This document shows positions 3,484-29,908 of a stretch of 64,000 nt of DNA, in pieces. Both the position numbers and the translations under genes were made by a program. The notes below the pieces were generated by a model, which had not been told where the DNA came from, made no database searches, and saw only the letters and a list, made by a program, of their open reading frames with translations. Origin of the DNA: Escherichia phage vB_Eco_mar004NP2. The number at the start of each line of letters is the position of its first letter. The first letter of the stretch is position 1. The stretch lies in the sequence record NC_048205.1, one strand, 5' to 3'.

Positions 3484-6247
3484 CTAGCTCTGCCATTGCT
3501 TCATCATGCATATGTTTCTCCTCATCAGTCATAAACTTATAAGGAATTGGCATACACTCGATTTTACAATAGGTTCTGTACCAGTCTACAATATTTTCAG
3601 TGTTCATATCCTTACCAATACCCATCATACCAAGATACATTCTAGCATATTTTGGGTTAGCACTCTGACCTGTTTTAAGGAAGAAGTCCTTCTTCTTACC
3701 TTTCAGAGCTTCTATGAATGGTTTGATAGTGACGTTTGAACACTTCTTAATATCTTCCCAAAACATCTCGTGCATTTTATGGAAGAATGCCGCTCGATCA
3801 TTAGGTTTATCCTTGATATATTGTTCAACATGCTCAACTGTTACATCTTTAATAGACTCAAGATGATAATAGCGAACAAGAAGTAGTTTAGCTTCATACG
3901 CATCCGCATGACGTGGAGCACAATAATCAGGAGTTGAATGTAGAATAGCTTTGATTCGCTCTTCCATATATTCTTTCCCTGCACCTTCAATAGTTCCCCA
4001 GCTTTCGCTGAAAATATCAATAGTTGCACCCTGATCAAGCAAGTAATAACGTAAAGTACTAGTATAATTTCTAGATTCCAGCTCTCTACGACGTGCATAT
4101 AATTGCTGTGCTAACTCCAGCCAGCCCTCATCAATATTATATTGTTCAGAACCTGCAGAGAATCCACTCGTAGATTTATCAATAAAATAATAGATATTCT
4201 GAGCACCACGGTCGCGCCTGATTGCTTGAAAACGCATGTTTGGAGCTTGGTTACTGGTTCTAGTAATAACGAATACGTTATCAAAATAGTTAAAGTCAAC
4301 TCCACTCGTTACGGATGGACTACATAATAAGCAATCAATTTGTTGATCAATCAGCTCATTAGTTGTGTAATCCAGAATACGTCTAATATCCACATCAGAC
4401 GTAGAATTTGAGTGGATTTCCTTAACTAACGCACCCGTATTACGACGTAATGCCATACCCTTCTCATTCAGCTCATCAGGGCCACAATCAGATACCAGAA
4501 TAGATTTCTCACCCATCTCTAGAGAAGTCTGAAGTGCAACCCAAATACTGGATTCATCAGGAAACTCATAAGCATGAGCTTTTGACAGCATTTTACGGTG
4601 ATGATTATAAAATGCAACCGGTTTATCAAACTCGATCAAAGAACCATATGCTTCAATTGTTTCTGCACTAATATCACCATCTGATAATATAATGATTTTT
4701 GCAGTTGCAAGAATATCCCGAAGAACCTGAATACATTCACGACGTTGTTTAACAACCGGGGCGAATAATAGGTCGTTCATTACTGCATCACATTCATCGA
4801 TAAAGATTGCATCAATTTGACCAATAAAACTCTTGAACTTATGCAAAGAGTGAATAGTTGTGGACATACGGTCAATAGCACCACGCTTAAAATTAAGCAT
4901 ATCTACAGACTTATCATATTGTCCTGCACTAAATTTCTTAGCATTGGAAGATACCAGTGCTCGAGTATTGGTAATTGCTAAGAAATTACCTTTAATAACT
5001 CCTGAATCTAACCAACGCACAACCGCTGTAGTTTTACCTGTACCTAGACTCGCTTTTACAAAAGTCATATAACCTTCTGGTGGCACAGTATTTAATTTCA
5101 AGAAGTTATCAGTCTCTAAAGAGTTAGTTTCTAGCTTTTTGAGTGGAATACCTTTTAAAACATCCGGTATATCACGTTTAGAATTATTAACAAATGCTTT
5201 TAGAGCCTGTTTACGACCATTATTAAAGTAGTCTTGAATATTACGACTATTATCTTTAGTTGCAATATATTCTGATAAGGCTGGACGGATTTCTTTTTCT
5301 AGCCATGCAAAATCAACACCATCCTCTAAAGCCCTGTGATAGAGTTTAGGAATAATACGTAGATACACTCCATCCTCAGCTTCTTCTAGTTCGCTGATGG
5401 TTTCTTCTACTTTATCAGAGGCAGCTTTTTTACCCTTAATTTGGTCGAGTAAAGAGTAGAACTCTTCTTTAAACTCACCTCTAGTTGTTTCATAGTCAAC
5501 CAGATTATTGGGTAAATTTACTTTAGAACCCTTAACAAATACCAGACGTGAAGCACCCTCCGCTTTAAACGGATCTACTATACCATCGGTAAATAACGGA
5601 TCTGCAAAATAATGGAGCTGTACGGAAGAGTAATAAGCTAAGTCGGCAATATCAAAGCCATACTTTTGTCTACTACTTTCGTTGATAGATGTAAATAAGA
5701 ATTTGATTTGACCCTGAGTTACTTTAACATTAGATTCTAGTATTAAGTGCATTCGGATACCTGGTTTTAGCCCAGCCGAAGACGATGCATGAGCGATAAA
5801 CCCTGCATCAAGAGGAAACATATCCTCACTAATACTATTTAACATTCTAATAATATGTCGAGCCATGCCAACAAGATCAAACTTGTTACAACCACCTGTA
5901 TCTACAATACCATCCACATCCATTGCAATTATATGACTTGGGTTAGATACATTAAAGTTGCCCTTCTTACGTCGCACATTATTTTTAGGTGCAAGACATC
6001 GACCTCGTACCGCAACGATATGAGGGTCAGACGTTAAACGTCTCATAAGAGGAAGCATTTCTACTAGGGTTTGAGGATCAACTTCGTCAATTACATCAAA
6101 CTTGAAGGGCATTGAAGCTGGTTTACCTTCAGGATGCTTTGAGGAAAATCTTTTAGCAAAAAGATAATCTTCTGCTTTAACTTCTCGCCAATTGCCTGTG
6201 GCTAAATCGCGATGAAATCCTGCATGACCTTGTAGGATTGAAAACAC
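3458..6247 (-). CDS. putative replication primase/helicase (P-loop NTPase)
   Basis: Walker A GTGKTT, DECD Walker B-like, helicase-like motifs; track ORF extends to 6325 (TTG) but GTG at 6247 has AGGAG RBS 7 nt upstream. Confidence 0.6.
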   Translation of the reverse strand: MFSILQGHAGFHRDLATGNWREVKAEDYLFAKRFSSKHPEGKPASMPFKFDVIDEVDPQTLVEMLPLMRRLTSDPHIVAVRGRCLAPKNNVRRKKGNFNVSNPSHIIAMDVDGIVDTGGCNKFDLVGMARHIIRMLNSISEDMFPLDAGFIAHASSSAGLKPGIRMHLILESNVKVTQGQIKFLFTSINESSRQKYGFDIADLAYYSSVQLHYFADPLFTDGIVDPFKAEGASRLVFVKGSKVNLPNNLVDYETTRGEFKEEFYSLLDQIKGKKAASDKVEETISELEEAEDGVYLRIIPKLYHRALEDGVDFAWLEKEIRPALSEYIATKDNSRNIQDYFNNGRKQALKAFVNNSKRDIPDVLKGIPLKKLETNSLETDNFLKLNTVPPEGYMTFVKASLGTGKTTAVVRWLDSGVIKGNFLAITNTRALVSSNAKKFSAGQYDKSVDMLNFKRGAIDRMSTTIHSLHKFKSFIGQIDAIFIDECDAVMNDLLFAPVVKQRRECIQVLRDILATAKIIILSDGDISAETIEAYGSLIEFDKPVAFYNHHRKMLSKAHAYEFPDESSIWVALQTSLEMGEKSILVSDCGPDELNEKGMALRRNTGALVKEIHSNSTSDVDIRRILDYTTNELIDQQIDCLLCSPSVTSGVDFNYFDNVFVITRTSNQAPNMRFQAIRRDRGAQNIYYFIDKSTSGFSAGSEQYNIDEGWLELAQQLYARRRELESRNYTSTLRYYLLDQGATIDIFSESWGTIEGAGKEYMEERIKAILHSTPDYCAPRHADAYEAKLLLVRYYHLESIKDVTVEHVEQYIKDKPNDRAAFFHKMHEMFWEDIKKCSNVTIKPFIEALKGKKKDFFLKTGQSANPKYARMYLGMMGIGKDMNTENIVDWYRTYCKIECMPIPYKFMTDEEKHMHDEAMAELGARNDSEE

Positions 6248-6866: not shown

Positions 6867-7259
6867 TCATTCATCATTTAGGCCTGGAACATAAATCCCA
6901 ACACGGTTTAATTGTTCTTTAGCTTCTTTGAGAATATCTGGAGTGTACTCCCAAATATCATCTTTCACCTGTAAAAGATGGGGCGAACAACCGTCATCAG
7001 GCACACGACATATGGCAAAACCACGTGGATGGAACAAAGAGAAATTTAGGGAAACAATTAAACCCATAGAGGACAATTCATTCCAGTCCATCTCCCATTC
7101 CCCGGCATATCCAGACAGGAAAACGCCAGTGCAGGGATCATCTATTTGCTGCTCTGGAAAAGTGAAGGAGGCTTGCTTTACCCCCAACCAACGTTGTAGC
7201 AGCTTCTCAGCACGCTTCACCAAACTAGGATCAATCTGACGCCAATATACTTGTTCCAT
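6867..7259 (-). CDS. hypothetical protein (paralog of 7269-7697)
   Basis: AAGGAGG RBS; shares W.EL..MGL...LN..LF.P and C-terminal G(I/Y).(V/I)PGL with neighbour. Confidence 0.65.
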   Translation of the reverse strand: MEQVYWRQIDPSLVKRAEKLLQRWLGVKQASFTFPEQQIDDPCTGVFLSGYAGEWEMDWNELSSMGLIVSLNFSLFHPRGFAICRVPDDGCSPHLLQVKDDIWEYTPDILKEAKEQLNRVGIYVPGLNDE

Positions 7260-7699: not shown

Positions 7700-8206
7700 T
7701 TACACCTTAAATTGTTGTAAGGATTTACACATTTCAATATCTGGGCTAAATTCTAGCATATAGCTAACAGCTTTTAAATCTTGAAGATTTATCCCAGTCC
7801 TACCGTTGACTATAACCGTTGGATACTGATACATCATAGCACCAGCATCATCAAGCACACACCAATGTTTGAGCTTATGCTTTTCAACGAAACGGAGAAC
7901 AGAATTACCTCTAGATAGCCCACCCCCAGTAAAATCAGTTGTACCAAGAAAACGATCGATAAGACCTAATCCGGTCATAATCTGAACGTTCTCCATCTCA
8001 TTCCTGACAGAGAACCATGAGGATACTCCAACAATCATTATCGGAGAAGGACGAATAAAATCCTGAAAAGCCTTGAGAAGCGGTTTGAAAACCCAGTCAC
8101 TTCCAAAGAAAATCTTTTCATTATCAGGTGCATGATGATGGGAGATGCTCGAATTGAGCACCCCATCAATGTCTAGAAAAATAATTGGAGTATTACTTAT
8201 TTCCAT
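7700..8206 (-). CDS. HAD-superfamily hydrolase/phosphatase (putative)
   Basis: N-terminal IIFLDIDGVLN matches HAD motif I (DxDG); AAGGAA RBS. Confidence 0.55.
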   Translation of the reverse strand: MEISNTPIIFLDIDGVLNSSISHHHAPDNEKIFFGSDWVFKPLLKAFQDFIRPSPIMIVGVSSWFSVRNEMENVQIMTGLGLIDRFLGTTDFTGGGLSRGNSVLRFVEKHKLKHWCVLDDAGAMMYQYPTVIVNGRTGINLQDLKAVSYMLEFSPDIEMCKSLQQFKV

Positions 8207-8296
8207 TTTTGTTCCTTTCTAAGAACGTATCATACTCAACCGTATCAACATATATAACACCAAGTGCCAGACTAAGCTATAAAAATATCCCATTCA

Positions 8297-9767: not shown

Positions 9768-9809
9768 ATAAAATAAAAGCCAGGTCGACTAGCAACCCGG
9801 CTGATTAGC

Positions 9810-11684
9810 TTATTTAGCTCGAATATCCTGATGTTTCACCCTGCCCATAACCTCGTGCTGTTTACCAGGGTTAAATGGACGAGCACCTGGATTTCCAAGA
9901 TACCCACAAACTCGGCGAGTTACTTCAAGAGTTTCGGGATCATGATTACCACAGATAGGGCACTTAAACCCATCTTCGGATGCTACTGTTTCACCTAAGA
10001 ATCCACATTTACCGCAAGAATCCACTGGAGTATTAATACCGAAGTAATGAACTTTACTAGCAGCATAATTAATAACCCATTCCAGTGCATCTGGGAATCG
10101 TTTCATATCTGGTAGTTCTACATAGGAAATGCACCCACCAGAAGCAATAGGCGTAAAGTTAGATTCATAATCAAATTTCACATTGGGAGCAACCTTACGT
10201 TCTACATCAAGGTGGTGCGAGTTAGTGTAGTATCCTTTAGACAGAATATCTTCATGCTCCGGGAAATATTCGCGGTCTAGACGACAAAAACGGTCACATA
10301 GGGATTCTGATGGTGTAGCATACAGGCTATAACCTAACTTAGTTTCTTCCTTCTTCTGATCGACTCTATCCCGCATGTACTGCAATACACGCTGAACAAA
10401 CTTGATGCAGGTCTCGGACATTGTGTCTACATCTTTGCCAAACATGAACTGTAGCATTTCATGGCAACCAATATACCCTAGAGATACAGAAGCACGGTTA
10501 TAGAAATGATCGAATACATATTCATCAGGCTCCAAGCGCAGTCCAAAGGCTCCTGACATATAGAGGATGGGCGCAGCTTTAGCTTGGATGTATTTTAAGC
10601 GATCAACTCTCCACTCCAATGCTTTTAACGCTGTATCCACACGTAGCTCAAGCAAATCAAAGAATAGGTCAATATTTCCTTCAGCTTCGATAGCAATTCT
10701 AGGCAAGTTTACAGAAACAACACCTAAGTTATTACGACCGGCAGTTTCACCATCTTCTGTAGCAGCTAGGAATGAACGGCAGCCCATAGAAACTTTATAG
10801 TCTCCAGTAACTTCCACAACCTTATCATAGCTGATATAATCTGGATACATACGTTCAGCAGTACATTTCATAGCTAACTTCTTGATGTCATAATTAACAT
10901 CTCCTGGTTTCATGTTAACGCCATCACGGAGTACAAATACCAGTTTCGGGAAGATAGCTGTACGCTTATTGATACCTAAACCATCCATGCGTACTTTCAG
11001 TATTGCTTTCTGTACTAGACGTGCTTCCCAAGAAGTTCCTAGACCAAAACCAAAGGTAATAAACGGACTCTGACCATTAGAGTTGAACATGGTATTGATT
11101 TCATATTCTAAACCCTGACAAGCGTCATAGACTTCTTTTTCAGTCATCTCCGTAGCCATTACGGATGCTTTGGCTTCATCCTTAGTCCAACGTTTTGCAA
11201 ACGCATGATTTTTGTCATAGGATTTACGAACATAAGGTGCTAATACTTCATCAAGGCGATCTACAGAAGTACCACCATACTGATGGGAGCTAACTTGAGT
11301 GATAATCTGAGCAGTGATAGCCGCCGCAGTAGTGATAGAGTTTGGAGTGCTAATTTCAGCATTACCAACCTTCATACCATTCTTCAACATATCTTCCAGA
11401 GCTACCAGGCAACAGTTAGTCATGCCTAATGCAGCATAATCAGCATCATGGAAATGAATATCCCCAATCATATGAGCATTTCGAATCTGAATTGGCATTT
11501 CTTCTAGAATCAGATACTTACTCAATTCACCTGCAAGCATATCCCTTTGTGTAGGGAAACGTTCTGAGGGTTTATTGGCATTATTAAACAGCAGCTCTTC
11601 ATCTGCTGACCCTTCGATAATCTCTTTGCAGTTTCTAATTAACGCCTGCATTTCTTTATACTTTAGTTCTTCATTGCGATTCAT
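9810..11684 (-). CDS. nrdD: anaerobic ribonucleoside-triphosphate reductase
   Basis: 624 aa; C-terminal glycyl-radical motif RVCGYLG and Cys cluster CGKCG...CPICG; RBS AAGGAG. Confidence 0.9.
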   Translation of the reverse strand: MNRNEELKYKEMQALIRNCKEIIEGSADEELLFNNANKPSERFPTQRDMLAGELSKYLILEEMPIQIRNAHMIGDIHFHDADYAALGMTNCCLVALEDMLKNGMKVGNAEISTPNSITTAAAITAQIITQVSSHQYGGTSVDRLDEVLAPYVRKSYDKNHAFAKRWTKDEAKASVMATEMTEKEVYDACQGLEYEINTMFNSNGQSPFITFGFGLGTSWEARLVQKAILKVRMDGLGINKRTAIFPKLVFVLRDGVNMKPGDVNYDIKKLAMKCTAERMYPDYISYDKVVEVTGDYKVSMGCRSFLAATEDGETAGRNNLGVVSVNLPRIAIEAEGNIDLFFDLLELRVDTALKALEWRVDRLKYIQAKAAPILYMSGAFGLRLEPDEYVFDHFYNRASVSLGYIGCHEMLQFMFGKDVDTMSETCIKFVQRVLQYMRDRVDQKKEETKLGYSLYATPSESLCDRFCRLDREYFPEHEDILSKGYYTNSHHLDVERKVAPNVKFDYESNFTPIASGGCISYVELPDMKRFPDALEWVINYAASKVHYFGINTPVDSCGKCGFLGETVASEDGFKCPICGNHDPETLEVTRRVCGYLGNPGARPFNPGKQHEVMGRVKHQDIRAK

Positions 11685-23669: not shown

Positions 23670-23840
23670 ATGAAATCAGTTGTAATTATTGGTGTTAACA
23701 CTCGCGGTATTCGTACTACGAAAACTGTTAAAACTTCTAACGTTGCTGAGATCACTACGAACCCTAAAAAGTTTGATTTCGCCAAAGTCTCAGCAGTTAT
23801 GACAGAACGATCTTTTAACCAAGCGTTAGGAATGAAATAA
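23670..23840 (+). CDS. small hypothetical protein (56 aa)
   Basis: Unlisted short ORF with GAGAGGAAG RBS directly after promoter; stop overlaps next ATG. Confidence 0.45.
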   Translation: MKSVVIIGVNTRGIRTTKTVKTSNVAEITTNPKKFDFAKVSAVMTERSFNQALGMK

Positions 23841-24283
23841 TGGAAGAGAATATTTTAGATGTTTTGCGTAGAGCTTTGCAGGATTCTAAGTTTAATGGTT
23901 CTGATAAAGAAGTCGCTAAAAGCTATCAGACCATAATCGGGGATCTTCAGCGTATTAATAAAGATTTCATCACTTCTGAACAATTTGTGTCTTATCTCAA
24001 AGCTCAACTAAAAAGCATTAACCAGATGAAAGCTAAACTTCATGGTCAAGATCTTGATAGTTATAGCTTGCAGTCCGCTCAGTATGAATACATTCTAAAT
24101 AAGTGGTTGCAGGAGTATCTGCCTCCTCAGTTATCTGATACTGAGATTCGTAAATACTTTGCAGAATTAGTTAAGCTAAACCCTGGAATTACAAAAGGTA
24201 TGCTAATGAAAGCGATTAAGGAAGAATTTCCTGGGCGTTATGATGGTGGTACTGCTGCTCAGATTGCTGGCGAATTTAATTAA
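23840..24283 (+). CDS. GatB/YqeY-domain protein (putative)
   Basis: C-terminal G..KGMLMKAIKEEFPGRYDGGTAAQIA resembles YqeY motif. Confidence 0.5.
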   Translation: MEENILDVLRRALQDSKFNGSDKEVAKSYQTIIGDLQRINKDFITSEQFVSYLKAQLKSINQMKAKLHGQDLDSYSLQSAQYEYILNKWLQEYLPPQLSDTEIRKYFAELVKLNPGITKGMLMKAIKEEFPGRYDGGTAAQIAGEFN

Positions 24284-24291
24284 AAATTTAT

Positions 24292-24320
24292 TTGCTAAAT
24301 GCTTATAAATTCTGTATAAT
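24292..24320 (+). promoter_or_regulatory. T5-type early promoter driving about 900 nt without an ORF
   Basis: -35 TTGCTA / 17 bp / -10 TATAAT. Confidence 0.6.
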
Positions 24321-24558
24321 ATATTCATAAATTAGAGAACAGCGAGCCGATTACGCTGAACTTGTCTTAATGTAAGATGCGTCAAGCACTAAGATTCGTT
24401 GAATAGAGTCGGTGGGTTAGTTGTAAAACTAGTACACAGGGGGCGGCAATCCCGGTTAGTGGCTAGAACGTGTAAAATGAGGCGTCTGAAACCTCTCCCC
24501 TAAACTCTTCTCTAATTTATAAATAGTGGGGTGTGGAAATCACTTATGTAGTAACACT

Positions 24559-24630
24559 GCCGTCCTAGTATAATTGGTATTATCAAGCCGTAACTGGTGG
24601 AAGATGTAGGTTCGAATCCTACGGTCGGTA
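24559..24630 (+). pseudogene. tRNA-like element lacking a foldable anticodon arm (possible tRNA pseudogene)
   Basis: Acceptor-like pairing GCCGTCC/GGTCGGT and perfect T-arm GTAGG-TTCGAAT-CCTAC but no anticodon stem; no CCA. Confidence 0.3.
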
Positions 24631-25132
24631 AGAACTGGATAACTGATGCTTTTAACGTAAAAGCTTCCGAGGTTAGTTGCGCACTGCCTAAACCACGCGG
24701 TAGTTGGTTCCAGACTAACCAACCAGTCTGCTGAATAGTTTTATTACGATTTAACTATGCCCAGGCTAAAGAAGAACTTTAGAAGGTATTCTAGGGTAGT
24801 GAAGTTCTTTCTCCATATCGGAGTAGTTTTTCAAGCTATCCACAAAGTGGGAAATGCTGACATGAGAGATGTCACTAATGGTGCACAATAGCACAGGTAA
24901 TTCGCGATAACTCCTGTTGAGTAGCAGCAAAAGGTGGGAAGTCATGACCCCAAGCCTAACCGAGTCCTCAATATACCGCAGGACATAACCACTAAGTCAC
25001 CCTGACTTAAACTGGAAAATAATAGACGTTACCGTATTTTGTCTTGAAATACTTAATGAGTGAGACTTATGACTCTCCCGGTATCGTCTGTATTTTTAAG
25101 AGTTTTTACGAGAGTTCTTAAAAATACTTAAA

Positions 25133-25207
25133 CGGGGTGTAGTCTAAGGGATAGGCAGGAGTCTTCTAAATTCCTTTATGCAGGTTCGAATCCTGTCACC
25201 TCGGCCA
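25133..25207 (+). tRNA. tRNA-Arg (anticodon TCT)
   Basis: Hand-folded: acceptor CGGGGTG/CACCTCG, AC loop CTTCTAA, T-loop TTCGAAT, encoded CCA. Confidence 0.7.
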
Positions 25208-25241
25208 ATTTTATTAACTGTAACTAAAACAAAGGAAATAT

Positions 25242-26189
25242 ATGTTTAATACTAAAAATATGAAAGAACTAACTTCTGAGCAGAAAGTAATTCGTACTAT
25301 TAAACGTTGGGGGATTGGTGCTGTAGTTGGTTTAGCAGGTTTAATCCTAGCTTTTAATTCATATACTATTGTTTCTGATGGTACGGTTAAAACCCAAACA
25401 TTTCTTGGTAAAGTAGATCCTAACCCAGTATTACCTGGTTTCCATCCTGTAAACCCATTTGCATCTTTCGATACTTTTAGTACAAAAGATATTGCTGTAA
25501 AATTAGATAAACTTCAGGTTCCTAGCCAGGATAAGTTTAAATCCACTGTTGACCTGACTGTTATGTTGCAGTTTGATGGTTCTAAGGCACCGATTAACCG
25601 TATTAATGCAGGTACTCAGGATCAAGCATTAGACAAATATGTAACTGAAAAATTACTGTCTACTATTCGTGAGTTTGGTAAGTCTGTACCTAAAGCACAA
25701 GATTTATTTGATGCTAAAATTCAGGCTCAATTGCAAACTGCAATTCAACAGGAAGTTGAAGAGTATGCACGCCCATATGGCTACACAGTTAAGCAGGTGT
25801 TTCTTCAGGATATTACTTTGCCACCAGTAATCATGGAACAGGTACAGAATACCAAAGTTCGTGAAGAGCAAGTTAATGCTGCAAAAGCTGAACTGGCTCG
25901 CGTTGAACAAGAAGCTCAGCAGAAAGTTAAACAAGCAGAAGCAGACCGTGAAGCTCGTAATAACCAAGCTATTGCTAACGAACGCGACGCAGATGCTAAA
26001 CTGTACGCAGCTAAGAAAGAAGCTGAAGCTAACGCCGCGCTGCAACGTACCATTACTCCTGAGATGATTCGCTGGAAGCAACTAGAAGTTGAAATGATTC
26101 GTGCTCAGAAGTATCAAGGTGGTGTACCGCAGACTGTGGTTGGCACTGGTTACGATGGCCAGATGATTATGGATATGCGTAATAAGTAA
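25242..26189 (+). CDS. SPFH/band-7 (HflC/prohibitin-like) membrane protein
   Basis: N-terminal TM helix plus coiled-coil Ala/Glu/Lys-rich C-terminus; AAGGAAA RBS. Confidence 0.55.
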   Translation: MFNTKNMKELTSEQKVIRTIKRWGIGAVVGLAGLILAFNSYTIVSDGTVKTQTFLGKVDPNPVLPGFHPVNPFASFDTFSTKDIAVKLDKLQVPSQDKFKSTVDLTVMLQFDGSKAPINRINAGTQDQALDKYVTEKLLSTIREFGKSVPKAQDLFDAKIQAQLQTAIQQEVEEYARPYGYTVKQVFLQDITLPPVIMEQVQNTKVREEQVNAAKAELARVEQEAQQKVKQAEADREARNNQAIANERDADAKLYAAKKEAEANAALQRTITPEMIRWKQLEVEMIRAQKYQGGVPQTVVGTGYDGQMIMDMRNK

Positions 26190-26920: not shown

Positions 26921-26998
26921 GGTTCTCAAGCTCATATGGTATGAGCACCCGGCTCATAACCGGAAGGTACGTAGGTTCGAATCCTCGGGGAGCCACCA
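26921..26998 (+). tRNA. tRNA with CAT anticodon (Met, fMet or Ile2)
   Basis: AC loop CTCATAA; acceptor with two G-U pairs; T-stem imperfect. Confidence 0.5.
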
Positions 26999-29334: not shown

Positions 29335-29853
29335 GTGCATACAAAAGTTTTTGATAGTTTGGTAAAGAAAGGCGTTGTTACTAACGAGCCCTTCTATATA
29401 ACCGCAGAACTAATCCAGAGATTTATGGAAGAATATATAAATCTTTCAGGAACCAATGGTAATACCAAAAAGAATACAAATACTATGTATTCGAGAAAAC
29501 TTGCTGCACTTTCCTTTATAAAGTTTAAGCAGGAAAATAAACTTCCTATTTCTGAAGGTTTTGTATACTGTATTAGTAATCCTGCATGGAAAAATCAGTA
29601 TAAAATAGGTATGAGTCAAAATCCAAAAGAGAGATTAGCTCAATATCAGACTTATTCCCCTTATAGGGATTATAAGTTAGAGCATTGGTCTTTTTGGTTT
29701 GACAAACGAAAAGGTGAAAAACTAATTCACCAGTATTTCAAAGATTTAAAAGAACATGAGTGGTTTAGTATAAATTCTAGGGATCTTAGTAAATATCTAG
29801 AACGTATTAACTCTAGTTCTGACTTATATGGTTCCTTAGCTCTAATTGGTTAG
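29335..29853 (+). CDS. T5orf172-domain protein
   Basis: 172 aa; GFVYCISNPAWKNQYKIGMSQNPKERL matches the T5orf172 family signature as recalled; GTG start after AAAGGAAAG; 3' end overlaps next tRNA. Confidence 0.6.
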   Translation: MHTKVFDSLVKKGVVTNEPFYITAELIQRFMEEYINLSGTNGNTKKNTNTMYSRKLAALSFIKFKQENKLPISEGFVYCISNPAWKNQYKIGMSQNPKERLAQYQTYSPYRDYKLEHWSFWFDKRKGEKLIHQYFKDLKEHEWFSINSRDLSKYLERINSSSDLYGSLALIG

Positions 29854-29908
29854 AGCGGCATCTTGTTAAGTTGAGGGTTGCTGGATTCGAATCCAGCAGG
29901 AACCGCCA
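29830..29908 (+). tRNA. tRNA-Asn (anticodon GTT), tentative
   Basis: Acceptor GGTTCCT/AGGAACC, D-arm GCTC/GAGC; weak AC stem; T-loop one nt longer than canonical. Confidence 0.45.

What the first reader, a model, noticed from the sequence alone, without database searches (positions are those of the whole stretch)
24321..25132. About 800 nt of ORF-free sequence transcribed from a strong early promoter
The promoter at 24292-24320 is followed by roughly 800 nt with no ORF or convincing RBS before tRNA-Arg (25133) and the next CDS (25242). The segment contains an acceptor/T-arm tRNA-like remnant (24559-24630) and several GC-rich inverted repeats, so it may encode one or more stable non-coding RNAs or an elaborate tRNA precursor leader.
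Basis: seen in the sequence. Interest (0 to 1): 0.5.

Follow-up and report, generated by a model that had tools for sequence, protein, structure and literature searches.

The report
RNAX, T5's large structured non-coding RNA
The roughly 800 ORF-free bases are rnaX, a "stable RNA of unknown function" already annotated in phage T5; comparison across T5-like phages shows an elaborately folded, modular non-coding RNA with a built-in tRNA look-alike, and its job is still unknown.

Summary
A conserved T5-type early promoter (24292-24320) is followed by about 806 nt with no conserved ORF, running straight into tRNA-Arg(UCU) at 25133.

The region is not new as an object. T5 RefSeq, BF23, phage 5, DT57C and DT571/2 annotate it as rnaX, "stable RNA with unknown functions", transcribed from promoter P16-17.

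The new part is the evidence that it is a genuine multi-domain structured RNA:
- Substitutions show no codon periodicity, while both flanking genes do.
- Three domains show compensatory base-pair changes far above shuffled and slid controls, across five lineages of T5-like phages.
- D1 (24327-24520) is a pseudoknotted 5' domain.
- D2 (24524-24700) is a long stem capped by a tRNA-like element (24559-24630). That element keeps its acceptor stem, D arm and T arm but never has a normal anticodon loop.
- D4 (24844-25132) is a 3' core ending in a nearly invariant hairpin.

Domains are gained, lost or swapped for homing-endonuclease genes. No Rfam family matches, including GOLLD and ROOL. The T5 st0 deletion mutant lacks the region, so it is dispensable. 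Function remains inferred.

The parts
24292..24320 (+). Early sigma-70 promoter, equivalent to T5 'P16-17'. The -35 hexamer TTGCTA is at 24292-24297 and the -10 hexamer TATAAT at 24315-24320.
   Evidence: The consensus scan matches 10 of 12 positions. The site is annotated as promoter P16-17 in phage 5 and T5. The same 55-nt block recurs at other annotated T5 promoters. It is conserved from Tequintavirus to Sugarlandvirus, and Hongcheonvirus and Novosibvirus have a comparable TTGCT-N17-TATAAT promoter-like site ahead of their RNAX homologue.
24327..25132 (+). The whole RNAX transcript, about 806 nt. The 5' end is inferred from the -10 hexamer; the homologous annotation start maps to about 24333. 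The 3' end is set by the first base of tRNA-Arg.
   Evidence: 100% identical to Salmonella phage EH4 and 96.6% identical to phage 5, where it is annotated rnaX. No Rfam family matches apart from the tRNA model. There is no codon periodicity. The minimum-free-energy fold is -219 kcal/mol with z = -1.8, and 0 of 20 shuffles fold as well.
24327..24520 (+). Domain D1, an optional pseudoknotted 5' domain.
- P0: 24327-24333 pairs with 24514-24520.
- P1: AGAGAA 24334-24339 pairs with TTCTCT 24508-24513.
- P2 hairpin: 24340-24344 pairs with 24354-24358.
- Pseudoknot: P2-loop GCCGA 24346-24350 pairs with TCGGT 24409-24413.
- P6: GGG 24414-24416 pairs with CCC 24497-24499.
   Evidence: Compensatory variants are seen directly:
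- P1: AAAGAA/TTCTTT in DU_PP_V and AGGGTA/TACCCT in Proteus phage.
- P2: CAGCA/TGCTG.
- Pseudoknot: GCAGA/TCTGT.
- P6: GAG/CTC.

In the pair count, 98.2% of cells are paired. 11 of 28 pairs change on both sides, against 1.7±0.9 in shuffles (0 of 500 reach it) and 0-3 in slid controls. A covariance model built without DU_PP_V or the Proteus phage still finds both, at 61 and 50 bits. D1 is absent from T5 and DT57C and is replaced by an HNH homing-endonuclease gene in MSP1, SE24 and CitS1.
24524..24700 (+). Domain D2.
- Closing helix: GTGG 24526-24529 pairs with CCAC 24693-24696.
- Conserved block TAGTGGGGTGTGGAAATCACTTATGTAGTAACACTGCC at 24524-24561.
- A long irregular stem joins about 24544-24561 with about 24627-24647.
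- Hairpin 24648-24664.
   Evidence: In the pair count, 96.3% of cells are paired. 16 of 30 pairs change on both sides, against 7.4±1.4 in shuffles (0 of 500) and 1-4 in slid controls. The closing helix covaries: GTGG/CCAC, TACGG/CCGTA (DU_PP_V and My1) and AATGGG/CCCATT (Proteus phages).
24559..24630 (+). tRNA-like cap on the D2 stem. The acceptor stem, the D arm with GG and the T arm GGTTCGAATCC are conserved. The 'anticodon arm' is a 3-bp stem with a 6-nt GTAACT loop. No CCA is encoded.
   Evidence: Rfam tRNA model 35.5 bits, with the anticodon arm unaligned. ARAGORN gives no call. In relatives the anticodon arm becomes a 5-bp stem with a 22-nt loop, a 6-bp stem with a GCGAA loop, or a 6-bp stem with a triloop. 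In SH9, S116, L025 and the Proteus phage the whole element is replaced by a plain hairpin. Other annotators call it tRNA-OTHER, pseudo-tRNA, tRNA-SeC or tRNA-Pro. It has no close paralogue among the window's tRNAs.
24701..24843 (+). Domain D3, a variable linker of hairpins. It differs or is replaced between lineages.
   Evidence: Module-level comparison by BLAST and MAFFT. It was not analysed for covariation.
24844..25132 (+). Domain D4, the conserved 3' core.
- Closing helix: GTGG 24847-24850 pairs with CCAC 24989-24992.
- Near-invariant GRAGTCATGACC (invariant from its first G except one G/A position) within 24936-24951.
- Hairpin plus tail AGTCACCCTGACTTAAACTGGAA at 24995-25017.
- Sub-domain 25025-25089.
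   Evidence: In the pair count, 96.3% of cells are paired. 17 of 47 pairs change on both sides, against 9.6±1.7 in shuffles (0 of 500) and 5-7 in slid controls. Caveat: the helices were taken from RNAalifold on the same alignment and then filtered for good pairing.
25090..25127 (+). Terminal hairpin GTATTTTTAAGAGTTTTTACGAGAGTTCTTAAAAATAC, five bases upstream of tRNA-Arg.
   Evidence: It has 16 pairs, and all cells are paired. 11 pairs never vary and 5 vary on one side only, through G-U wobble, across 19 sequences from Tequintavirus to Hongcheonvirus. No run of T follows it, and the scan calls no + strand terminator. In relatives that carry an inserted ORF, the hairpin stays upstream of that ORF.
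25133..25207 (+). tRNA-Arg (anticodon TCT). Its 5' end defines the 3' end of RNAX.
   Evidence: ARAGORN and Rfam at 49.3 bits. In every fully inspected lineage RNAX is followed by tRNA-Arg, sometimes after inserted ORFs; NR01 (L017) looks like an exception, not followed up.

Best explanation
The interval is the gene rnaX. A strong early promoter (P16-17) starts a transcript whose first roughly 806 nt do not code for protein. They fold into a chain of separately closed RNA domains:
- D1, a pseudoknotted 5' domain.
- D2, a long stem capped by a tRNA-like element.
- D3, a variable linker.
- D4, a conserved 3' core that ends in a nearly invariant hairpin.

**Shown.**
- The promoter is conserved.
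- There is no coding signal.
- Base pairing is conserved, with many compensatory changes, on the + strand only. Conserved G-U pairs fix the strand.
- The family spans Tequintavirus, Epseptimavirus, Sugarlandvirus, Hongcheonvirus/Myunavirus and Novosibvirus.
- The domains are independent cassettes. T5 and DT57C lack D1, the Proteus phages lack the recognisable D3-D4 motifs, and homing-endonuclease genes sit at the domain borders.
- The T5 st0 deletion mutant lacks the region.

**Inferred.**
- Transcription reads through into tRNA-Arg, since no terminator is found.
- RNase P cleavage at the tRNA-Arg 5' end therefore releases RNAX.
- The terminal hairpin then shields the new 3' end, which would make RNAX the 'stable RNA' the depositors describe.

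**Most likely role (inference, about 50%).** RNAX acts in trans as an accessory RNA during infection, as a scaffold or decoy. Its conserved unpaired blocks and its tRNA-like elbow and acceptor module would dock host or phage factors that normally bind tRNA. It works like the large ornate phage RNAs GOLLD and ROOL, which also sit in tRNA islands and can embed tRNAs, but it is not a member of either family.
For: **Identity and annotation**
- The stretch is identical or nearly identical to annotated rnaX.
- Promoter evidence.

**Non-coding**
- ORFs are 60 aa or shorter and are not conserved.
- Mismatch counts by codon phase for RNAX against Stitch are 85/89/83. The flanking CDSs give 10/3/33 and 20/7/61.

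**Structure**
- D1: 11 of 28 pairs compensatory, against 1.7 in shuffles (sequences).
- D2: 16 of 30, against 7.4.
- D4: 17 of 47, against 9.6.
- Slid controls are far lower in all three domains.
- The single-sequence fold reproduces D1 closure, P2, the T arm of the tRNA-like element and the terminal hairpin.
- A D1 covariance model recovers the divergent DU_PP_V and Proteus copies that were left out of its seed.

**Modularity**.

**Dispensability**
- The st0 deletion removes the region.
- The roughly 8-kb spontaneously deleted region of T5 and SP15 has been described as an anti-defence island (bioRxiv 10.1101/2023.03.15.532788). Whether that region includes rnaX was not checked.

**Analogy**
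- GOLLD and ROOL are phage or prophage RNAs near tRNA islands.
- GOLLD exceeds 800 nt, has a conserved 3' part and a variable 5' part, and sometimes carries tRNAs in its linker (PMC12286853).
Against: - I saw no transcript data. 'Stable RNA' rests on database annotation only, and the literature searches found no paper describing RNAX.
- The thermodynamic signal of the whole RNA is modest, z = -1.8 with only 20 shuffles.
- Covariation rests on about five or six independent lineages. The D4 helices were chosen on the same alignment that was then counted, and the D1 alignment was fitted to the model.
- D1, the tRNA-like cap and D3-D4 are each missing in some viable phages. There may therefore be several small functions rather than one for the whole RNA.
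- Constant linkage to tRNA-Arg fits a purely cis role equally well.
- Nothing tested here bears directly on a decoy or scaffold activity.
Confidence: 0.75

Rival explanations
1. Pure cis-acting leader. The structured RNA exists only to make the downstream tRNA-Arg and early operon. It would serve as a folding, processing or stability platform for RNase P, RNase E or RNase III, and its 'stability' would be a by-product.
For: RNAX abuts tRNA-Arg(UCU), with only 5 nt between the terminal hairpin and the tRNA. The RNAX-then-tRNA-Arg order is kept in every fully inspected lineage; NR01 (L017) looks like an exception, not followed up. The most conserved piece is the hairpin next to the tRNA; in atrejo the only match to the query spans that hairpin plus tRNA-Arg.
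Against: In several lineages 0.5-kb ORFs separate the hairpin from tRNA-Arg, yet RNAX is unchanged. About 800 nt with pseudoknots and a tRNA-like cap is far more than any known tRNA leader needs. The other tRNAs in the window mostly follow short spacers, another tRNA or a small ORF.
Confidence: 0.2
2. Anti-defence decoy. The tRNA-like module, or the whole RNA, soaks up or misleads a host tRNA-targeting or RNA-sensing immune effector.
For: The region is absent from the T5 st0 deletion mutant. A roughly 8-kb deletable region of T5 and SP15 is described as an anti-defence island that holds tRNA-Tyr and Rad, though whether it includes rnaX was not checked. The tRNA elbow and acceptor stem are conserved while the anticodon is not. 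Cassette-like gain and loss between close relatives is typical of counter-defence genes.
Against: There is no anticodon loop, so it cannot be a decoy for anticodon nucleases. Four lineages replace the tRNA-like cap with a plain hairpin. Per the text excerpts read, the retron-neutralising activities mapped to three fragments holding tRNA-Tyr, ORF72/ORF73 and Rad; rnaX is not mentioned.
Confidence: 0.2
3. D1 is an autonomous riboswitch-like or ribozyme-like element at the 5' end of the transcript, and the remaining domains are separate RNAs.
For: D1 starts at about +1 and is closed by its own helix. It has a pseudoknot and near-invariant junction sequences (GAATAGA, GTAAACTC). It behaves as a separable cassette.
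Against: No Rfam riboswitch or ribozyme model matches, even at E<=10. No terminator, sequestered RBS or other expression platform follows D1. Phages that lack D1 keep everything downstream. Viral-contig motif scans found its P2 motif only in T5-like phages, apart from two chance matches in unrelated contigs.
Confidence: 0.1
4. Non-functional relic: decayed tRNA genes, intron or homing-endonuclease debris carried along in a recombination hot spot.
For: The region is mosaic, flanked and interrupted by HNH and GIY-YIG-type endonuclease genes. It contains a pseudo-tRNA, and it is dispensable in the laboratory.
Against: Compensatory substitutions keep more than 96% pairing in three domains across phage subfamilies. 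Sequence blocks are near-invariant, or share a conserved core, between phages whose neighbouring YqeY-like protein is only 30-50% identical.
Confidence: 0.05
5. Hidden small protein gene or genes, or a highly divergent member of GOLLD or ROOL.
For: Some annotation pipelines place 34-66 aa 'hypothetical proteins' here. The context resembles that of GOLLD and ROOL.
Against: There is no periodicity, no Shine-Dalgarno sequence, and the frames are broken in close relatives. No GOLLD or ROOL hit appears at E<=10 in the window or in eight diverse homologues.
Confidence: 0.03

Closest known systems
rnaX / RNAX of bacteriophage T5, BF23, phage 5, DT57C and DT571/2 (GenBank misc_RNA, 'stable RNA with unknown functions')
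   Same: It is the same locus and the same sequence family. It lies between the YqeY-like gene (T5.081) and tRNA-Arg and starts at promoter P16-17. The window is 96.6% identical to the annotated phage 5 copy.
   Different: The window's copy is the long form, with D1 and without T5's 87-nt insertion. T5 and DT57C lack D1. The annotations give only coordinates. I found no published structure, family model or function.
GOLLD RNA (Rfam RF01998)
   Same: Both are phage-encoded, about 800 nt long and located in a tRNA island. Both have a conserved 3' part with a variable or optional 5' part, and a tRNA or tRNA-like element embedded in the RNA (PMC12286853).
   Different: There is no sequence or structure match to the Rfam model. 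The embedded element in RNAX is never a functional-looking tRNA. Hosts are Enterobacterales phages. Multimer formation is untested.
ROOL RNA (Rfam RF03087)
   Same: Both are large, pseudoknotted phage or prophage RNAs near tRNA islands. In both, function is unknown and the RNA is non-essential.
   Different: There is no model match, and the domain organisation is different.
tRNA-like modules inside larger RNAs, such as the tmRNA tRNA-like domain and YrlA/Y RNA-like RNAs (from my own knowledge)
   Same: The acceptor stem and T arm, with the D/T-loop elbow, are kept while the anticodon function is lost.
   Different: ARAGORN finds no tmRNA, and Rfam YrlA and tmRNA models do not match. In RNAX the acceptor stem continues into a longer helix, and no CCA is encoded.
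Other stable RNAs of the T5 tRNA region (RNAI, RNAIII, RNA1, RNA2, RNA2H, RNAIV), and the T4 tRNA-cluster stable RNAs C and D (the T4 RNAs from my own knowledge)
   Same: All are non-coding RNAs co-transcribed with phage tRNAs, and all have unknown function.
   Different: Those RNAs are about 100-170 nt. RNAX is five to eight times larger and multi-domain. None of its motifs recurs elsewhere in the window.

Membership tests
T5-type rnaX (annotated stable RNA X) | Sequence homology to an annotated rnaX | tested here: met
   96.6% identity over the full length to AJ604531 rnaX. There are also matches to the rnaX features of NC_005859, NC_042564 and NC_027356.
T5-type rnaX (annotated stable RNA X) | Position: downstream of the T5.081-type YqeY-like gene and promoter P16-17, ending at tRNA-Arg(UCU) | tested here: met
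T5-type rnaX (annotated stable RNA X) | Accumulates as a stable RNA in infected cells | not testable with these tools
   Only the depositors' note is available, and no paper was found.
GOLLD (RF01998) | Match to the family covariance model, that is, to the conserved 3' domain | tested here: not met
   No hit at E<=10 in the window's 24200-25300 or in eight diverse homologues. No hit at the gathering score in the whole window.
GOLLD (RF01998) | Phage-borne, in or next to a tRNA island, and able to embed a tRNA | tested here: met
   This is context only and does not establish membership.
GOLLD / ROOL | Homo-oligomeric cage assembly | not testable with these tools
   This needs SEC-MALS or cryo-EM.
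ROOL (RF03087) | Match to the family covariance model | tested here: not met
tRNA (for 24559-24630) | Score above the Rfam gathering threshold | tested here: met
   35.5 bits against 29. Homologues score from 26.6 to 39 bits.
tRNA (for 24559-24630) | Cloverleaf with a 5-bp anticodon stem and a 7-nt anticodon loop | tested here: not met
   The anticodon arm is left unaligned by the model, and ARAGORN does not call a tRNA. Across lineages the arm is a 3-bp stem with a 6-nt loop, a 5-bp stem with a 22-nt loop, a 6-bp stem with a 5-nt loop or a 6-bp stem with a 3-nt loop, or the element is absent.
tRNA (for 24559-24630) | Free acceptor end with an encoded or addable CCA | tested here: not met
   No CCA is encoded. 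Positions -1/73 and -2/74 pair (U-A in 15 of 15 sequences, C-G in 14 of 15) and extend the stem into the D2 helix.
tmRNA / YrlA | Detection by ARAGORN (tmRNA) or by the Rfam models | tested here: not met
Known riboswitch or self-cleaving ribozyme classes (for D1) | Match to any Rfam model | tested here: not met
Protein-coding gene | A conserved frame, an RBS and third-position substitution bias | tested here: not met

The most novel reading that the evidence does not exclude
RNAX is the founding member of a third family of large 'ornate' phage RNAs. It would be functionally analogous to GOLLD and ROOL: associated with a tRNA island, embedding a tRNA-like element, and acting in trans through higher-order assembly or capture of tRNA-binding machinery. 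It would be evolutionarily unrelated to both. Uniquely, it sits in the genetically tractable model phage T5/BF23 and E. coli, where natural variants lacking D1, lacking the tRNA-like cap or lacking D3-D4 already exist.
Probability: 0.3. Interest if true: 0.8.

Novelty: already known. Interest (0 to 1): 0.5.

Why it matters
The element itself has been on record as rnaX since the T5, BF23 and phage 5 sequence deposits. As a discovery the finding is therefore not new.

What seems undescribed is that RNAX is a conserved, covariation-supported, multi-domain RNA family. It is found across Demerecviridae, it has a tRNA-mimicking cap, and no Rfam model covers it.

Large ornate phage RNAs such as GOLLD and ROOL are a current puzzle. 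Their structures are solved, but no function is known and the hosts are awkward to work with. An analogous RNA in T5-like coliphages would make the question directly testable. These phages offer easy genetics, natural domain-deletion variants, and a link to a deletable region reported to carry anti-defence genes.

Tried and rejected
- **Rfam.** Searches at the gathering threshold and at E<=10, on the window, eight homologues and seven odd loci, gave nothing but tRNA hits and noise.
- **Genome-contig scan.** The pattern GGAGTCATGACC-N15-45-AACCAC was too loose. It returned more than 120 hits across unrelated phyla, which I treat as chance. That scan was wasted.
- **Metagenome and viral motif scans.** They added few new lineages. 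L221, L223, L225 and L227 are chance matches inside coding sequence. L077 and L079 are the same kind of match.
- **MAFFT Q-INS-i.** The structural aligner is not installed.
- **A rejected D1 helix.** RNAalifold proposed AGAGT (24405-24409) pairing with ACTCT. I rejected it because the G-to-A change in Klebsiella phages, DU_PP_V and the Proteus phage is not compensated. The pseudoknot alternative is compensated.
- **A dropped D2 helix.** Alignment columns 10-14 pairing with 180-184 has mismatches in Tequintavirus and no covariation. The GTGG/CCAC closing helix was preferred.
- **Misaligned DU_PP_V.** Both MAFFT and the covariance model misplace DU_PP_V's GAGAGAATCTGTGAG block. Its pseudoknot covariation is therefore shown from motif extraction, not from the pair-counting tool.
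- **D4 closing-helix regex.** The pattern picked the wrong CC motif, so for that helix I rely.
- **Literature.** No paper on RNAX was found.
- **Origin of the tRNA-like element.** A recent copy of one of the window's tRNAs is not supported. The best global alignment score is 10 over 72 nt, to tRNA-Asp.
Full report
**What is at the coordinates**

The window is a T5-like phage. The query stretch is 100% identical to Salmonella phage EH4, and matches to all or part of it occur in 447 records by megablast and 566 by blastn.

- The interval 24321-25132 lies between a YqeY-like gene (23840-24283) and tRNA-Arg(TCT) (25133-25207). An SPFH/Band_7 gene follows.
- A TTGCTA-17-TATAAT promoter sits at 24292-24320.
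- The 55-nt block around this promoter recurs at T5's annotated promoters P-D/E33 and P-H207.
- In T5 and phage 5 the homologous site is annotated "promoter P16-17".
- ORFs in the interval are 60 aa or shorter.

**It is already annotated**

Five GenBank or RefSeq records mark this interval as misc_RNA rnaX, "RNAX, stable RNA with unknown functions". In each, the feature runs from the promoter to the base before tRNA-Arg.

| Record | Phage | Annotated length |
|---|---|---|
| NC_005859 | T5 | 719 nt |
| NC_042564 | BF23 | not read |
| AJ604531 | phage 5 | 785 nt |
| NC_027356 | DT57C | 636 nt |
| KM979355 | DT571/2 | 636 nt |

The T5 st0 deletion mutant lacks the region, so it is dispensable in the laboratory. 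A roughly 8-kb spontaneously deleted region of T5 and SP15 has been called an anti-defence island (bioRxiv 10.1101/2023.03.15.532788). I did not check whether that region includes rnaX. I found no paper that describes RNAX itself.

**Not coding**

- No ORF of 45 aa or more is shared across lineages.
- The only ATG-started + strand ORF (24757-24891, 44 aa) has no Shine-Dalgarno sequence. It is truncated to 12-22 aa in T5, HildyBeyeler, MSP1 and FFH_1.
- Mismatch counts by codon phase are flat for RNAX. Against Stitch they are 85/89/83, and p ranges from 0.42 to 0.93 over five comparisons.
- The two flanking genes show the classic third-position excess: 10/3/33 (p = 1e-7) and 20/7/61 (p = 2e-12).

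**No known RNA family**

Rfam release 15 gives only tRNA-model hits. There is no GOLLD, ROOL, YrlA, tmRNA, riboswitch or ribozyme hit at E<=10, in the window or in eight diverse homologues.

**Anatomy from comparison**

Homologues were collected from these groups:
- Tequintavirus.
- Epseptimavirus, including Yersinia phage phiR2-01.
- Sugarlandvirus, from Klebsiella.
- Hongcheonvirus DU_PP_V and what is probably Pectobacterium phage My1 (a 122,024-bp contig).
- Novosibvirus, from Proteus.

Alignment shows near-invariant blocks separated by hairpins that differ between lineages.

*D1 (24327-24520)* is closed by helices P0 and P1. It holds hairpin P2, whose loop pairs downstream to form a pseudoknot, and helix P6. 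Motif extraction shows the following variants.

| Helix | Window form | Variant forms |
|---|---|---|
| P1 | AGAGAA/TTCTCT | AAAGAA/TTCTTT (DU_PP_V); AGGGTA/TACCCT (Proteus phage) |
| P2 | CAGCG/CGCTG | CAGCA/TGCTG |
| Pseudoknot | GCCGA/TCGGT | GCAGA/TCTGT |
| P6 | GGG/CCC | GAG/CTC |

A covariance model built from 14 sequences, without DU_PP_V or the Proteus phage, finds both at 61 and 50 bits. It finds nothing else in the window. On the resulting alignment 98.2% of cells pair. 11 of 28 pairs change on both sides, against 1.7±0.9 in shuffles (0 of 500 reach it) and 0-3 when partners are slid.

*D2 (24524-24700)* is closed by GTGG/CCAC. That helix covaries to TACGG/CCGTA in DU_PP_V and My1 and to AATGGG/CCCATT in the Proteus phages. 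D2 contains a long stem plus a hairpin. 96.3% of cells pair, and 16 of 30 pairs are compensatory, against 7.4±1.4 in shuffles and 1-4 in slid controls.

*D3 (24701-24843)* is variable between lineages.

*D4 (24844-25132)* is closed by a second GTGG/CCAC helix.
- It carries the near-invariant GRAGTCATGACC, a hairpin with the tail AGTCACCCTGACTTAAACTGGA, a sub-domain and the terminal hairpin.
- 96.3% of cells pair, and 17 of 47 pairs are compensatory, against 9.6±1.7 in shuffles and 5-7 in slid controls.
- The caveat is that these helices were selected from RNAalifold on the same alignment.
- Many conserved G-U pairs mean the structure exists only on the + strand, which agrees with the promoter.

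The single-sequence fold has z = -1.8. It reproduces D1 closure, P2, the T arm of the tRNA-like element and the terminal hairpin.

**The tRNA-like element (24559-24630)**

- It scores 35.5 bits on the tRNA model. The anticodon arm is not alignable, and ARAGORN is silent.
- Across lineages the acceptor stem, the D loop with GG and the T arm (GGTTCGAATCC) are kept. The tRNA 'elbow' is therefore preserved.
- The anticodon arm is never canonical. It appears as 3 bp with a GUAACU loop, 5 bp with a 22-nt loop that holds a hairpin, 6 bp with a GCGAA loop, or 6 bp with a triloop.
- In SH9, S116, L025 and the Proteus phage the whole element is replaced by a plain hairpin, while both flanks stay.
- The acceptor stem is continued by conserved pairs into the D2 stem, and no CCA is encoded.
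- It is not a recent copy of any tRNA in the window.

It is therefore a conserved but replaceable cap on a helix, not debris.

**Modularity**

- T5, DT57C and DT571/2 lack D1 exactly between the P0/P1 strands.
- MSP1, SE24, CitS1, rokbiter and L021 have an HNH_3 homing-endonuclease gene in place of D1.
- An unknown 169-aa ORF, or a T5orf172/MUG113 endonuclease-type ORF, can sit between the terminal hairpin and tRNA-Arg.
- Klebsiella phages, phiR2-01, SH9 and L026 carry an extra module of about 200 nt between D1 and D2.
- The Proteus phages have D1, an extra segment and D2, and then tRNA-Arg, without the recognisable D3-D4 motifs.
- T5 has an 87-nt insertion flanked by a duplicated D4 hairpin motif.

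**How it most likely works**

What is shown: a conserved promoter, no + strand terminator before the tRNA, conserved structure and dispensability.

What is inferred:
- The primary transcript continues into tRNA-Arg.
- RNase P cleavage at 25132/25133 creates the RNAX 3' end.
- The adjacent 16-bp hairpin protects that end. Its sequence, not just its pairing, is almost invariant across subfamilies, which suggests it is also a recognition site.

The released RNA, or its separately closed domains, then acts in trans. I favour a scaffold or decoy role that uses the conserved single-stranded blocks and the tRNA elbow and acceptor module (about 50%). A purely cis leader role gets about 20%. An explicit anti-defence decoy gets about 20% and overlaps with the favoured role. 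Nothing here tests function directly.

**Comparison with known systems**

RNAX works like GOLLD and ROOL in context. Those are phage RNAs in tRNA islands. GOLLD is longer than 800 nt, has a variable 5' part and a conserved 3' part, and sometimes embeds tRNAs (PMC12286853). RNAX fails their model-based membership tests. It is a member of the annotated rnaX family by sequence and position.

**Verdict**

The object is already known as an annotation, so the novelty class is 'already known'. The covariation-backed multi-domain architecture, the family's range across Demerecviridae and the nature of the tRNA-like cap appear to be undescribed. That makes RNAX a tractable candidate for the unsolved biology of large ornate phage RNAs. 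I score interest at 0.5.

Noticed in passing
window 26921-26995 and 29830-29905 (+): The Rfam tRNA model scores 40.3 and 44.2 bits here, but ARAGORN calls no tRNA. These may be additional tRNA or tRNA-like genes in the cluster.
   Followed up: no
L212 (T5, NC_005859) about 1370-1480; also L082:7364-7472: T5 and one metagenome contig carry an 87-nt insertion inside D4. It is flanked by a direct duplication of the 22-nt motif AGTCACCTTGACTTAAACTGGA. The insert has 10-bp terminal inverted repeats, ATACTTACTT and AAGTAAGTAT.
   Followed up: partly
window 24995-25016; loci L049/L068, L062/L086, L074/L080/L090, L075, L081, L087: The D4 motif AGTCACCYTGACTWWAACTGGA also occurs in contigs that are not T5-like. 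Most of these sites are in AT-rich, apparently intergenic phage-like sequence, and one lies next to tRNAs. Rfam and the D1 model find nothing at these sites. By rough expectation the count may be near chance.
   Followed up: partly
L032:744-1226, L029:1707-2216, L213:2288-2800: Mobile genes sit at RNAX domain borders. An HNH_3 endonuclease (Pfam E = 1.2e-11) replaces D1. A 169-aa ORF with no Pfam hit, and a T5orf172/MUG113 ORF, lie between the terminal hairpin and tRNA-Arg.
   Followed up: partly
window 24284-24338 compared with L003 (T5 st0) 6035-6085, 6876-6925, 8196-8252 and 9794-9844: The promoter block is 80-88% identical to several other annotated T5 early promoters (P-D/E33, P-H207 and two putative promoters). 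T5 early promoters therefore share about 50 nt of extended similarity, not just the two hexamers.
   Followed up: partly
L062:14170-14241 (-), a 97-kb uncultivated viral contig: A sub-threshold YrlA (Y RNA-like) hit scores 37 bits against a gathering score of 69. It looks like a tRNA-like module and is unrelated to RNAX.
   Followed up: no
L220 and L222 (Proteus phages), downstream of tRNA-Arg: A second T5-type promoter-like sequence follows tRNA-Arg. After it comes another stretch of apparently ORF-poor, GC-rich-hairpin sequence before the next tRNA. This may be a further structured RNA.
   Followed up: no
window 23840-24283: Annotators label the upstream gene variously as 'tRNA amidotransferase', 'recombination-related exonuclease' or 'YqeY-like'. 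Pfam gives only a sub-threshold YqeY match, 25.4 bits against a cutoff of 27. The gene exists in two very divergent allelic forms, about 45-60% identical, among otherwise close phages.
   Followed up: no
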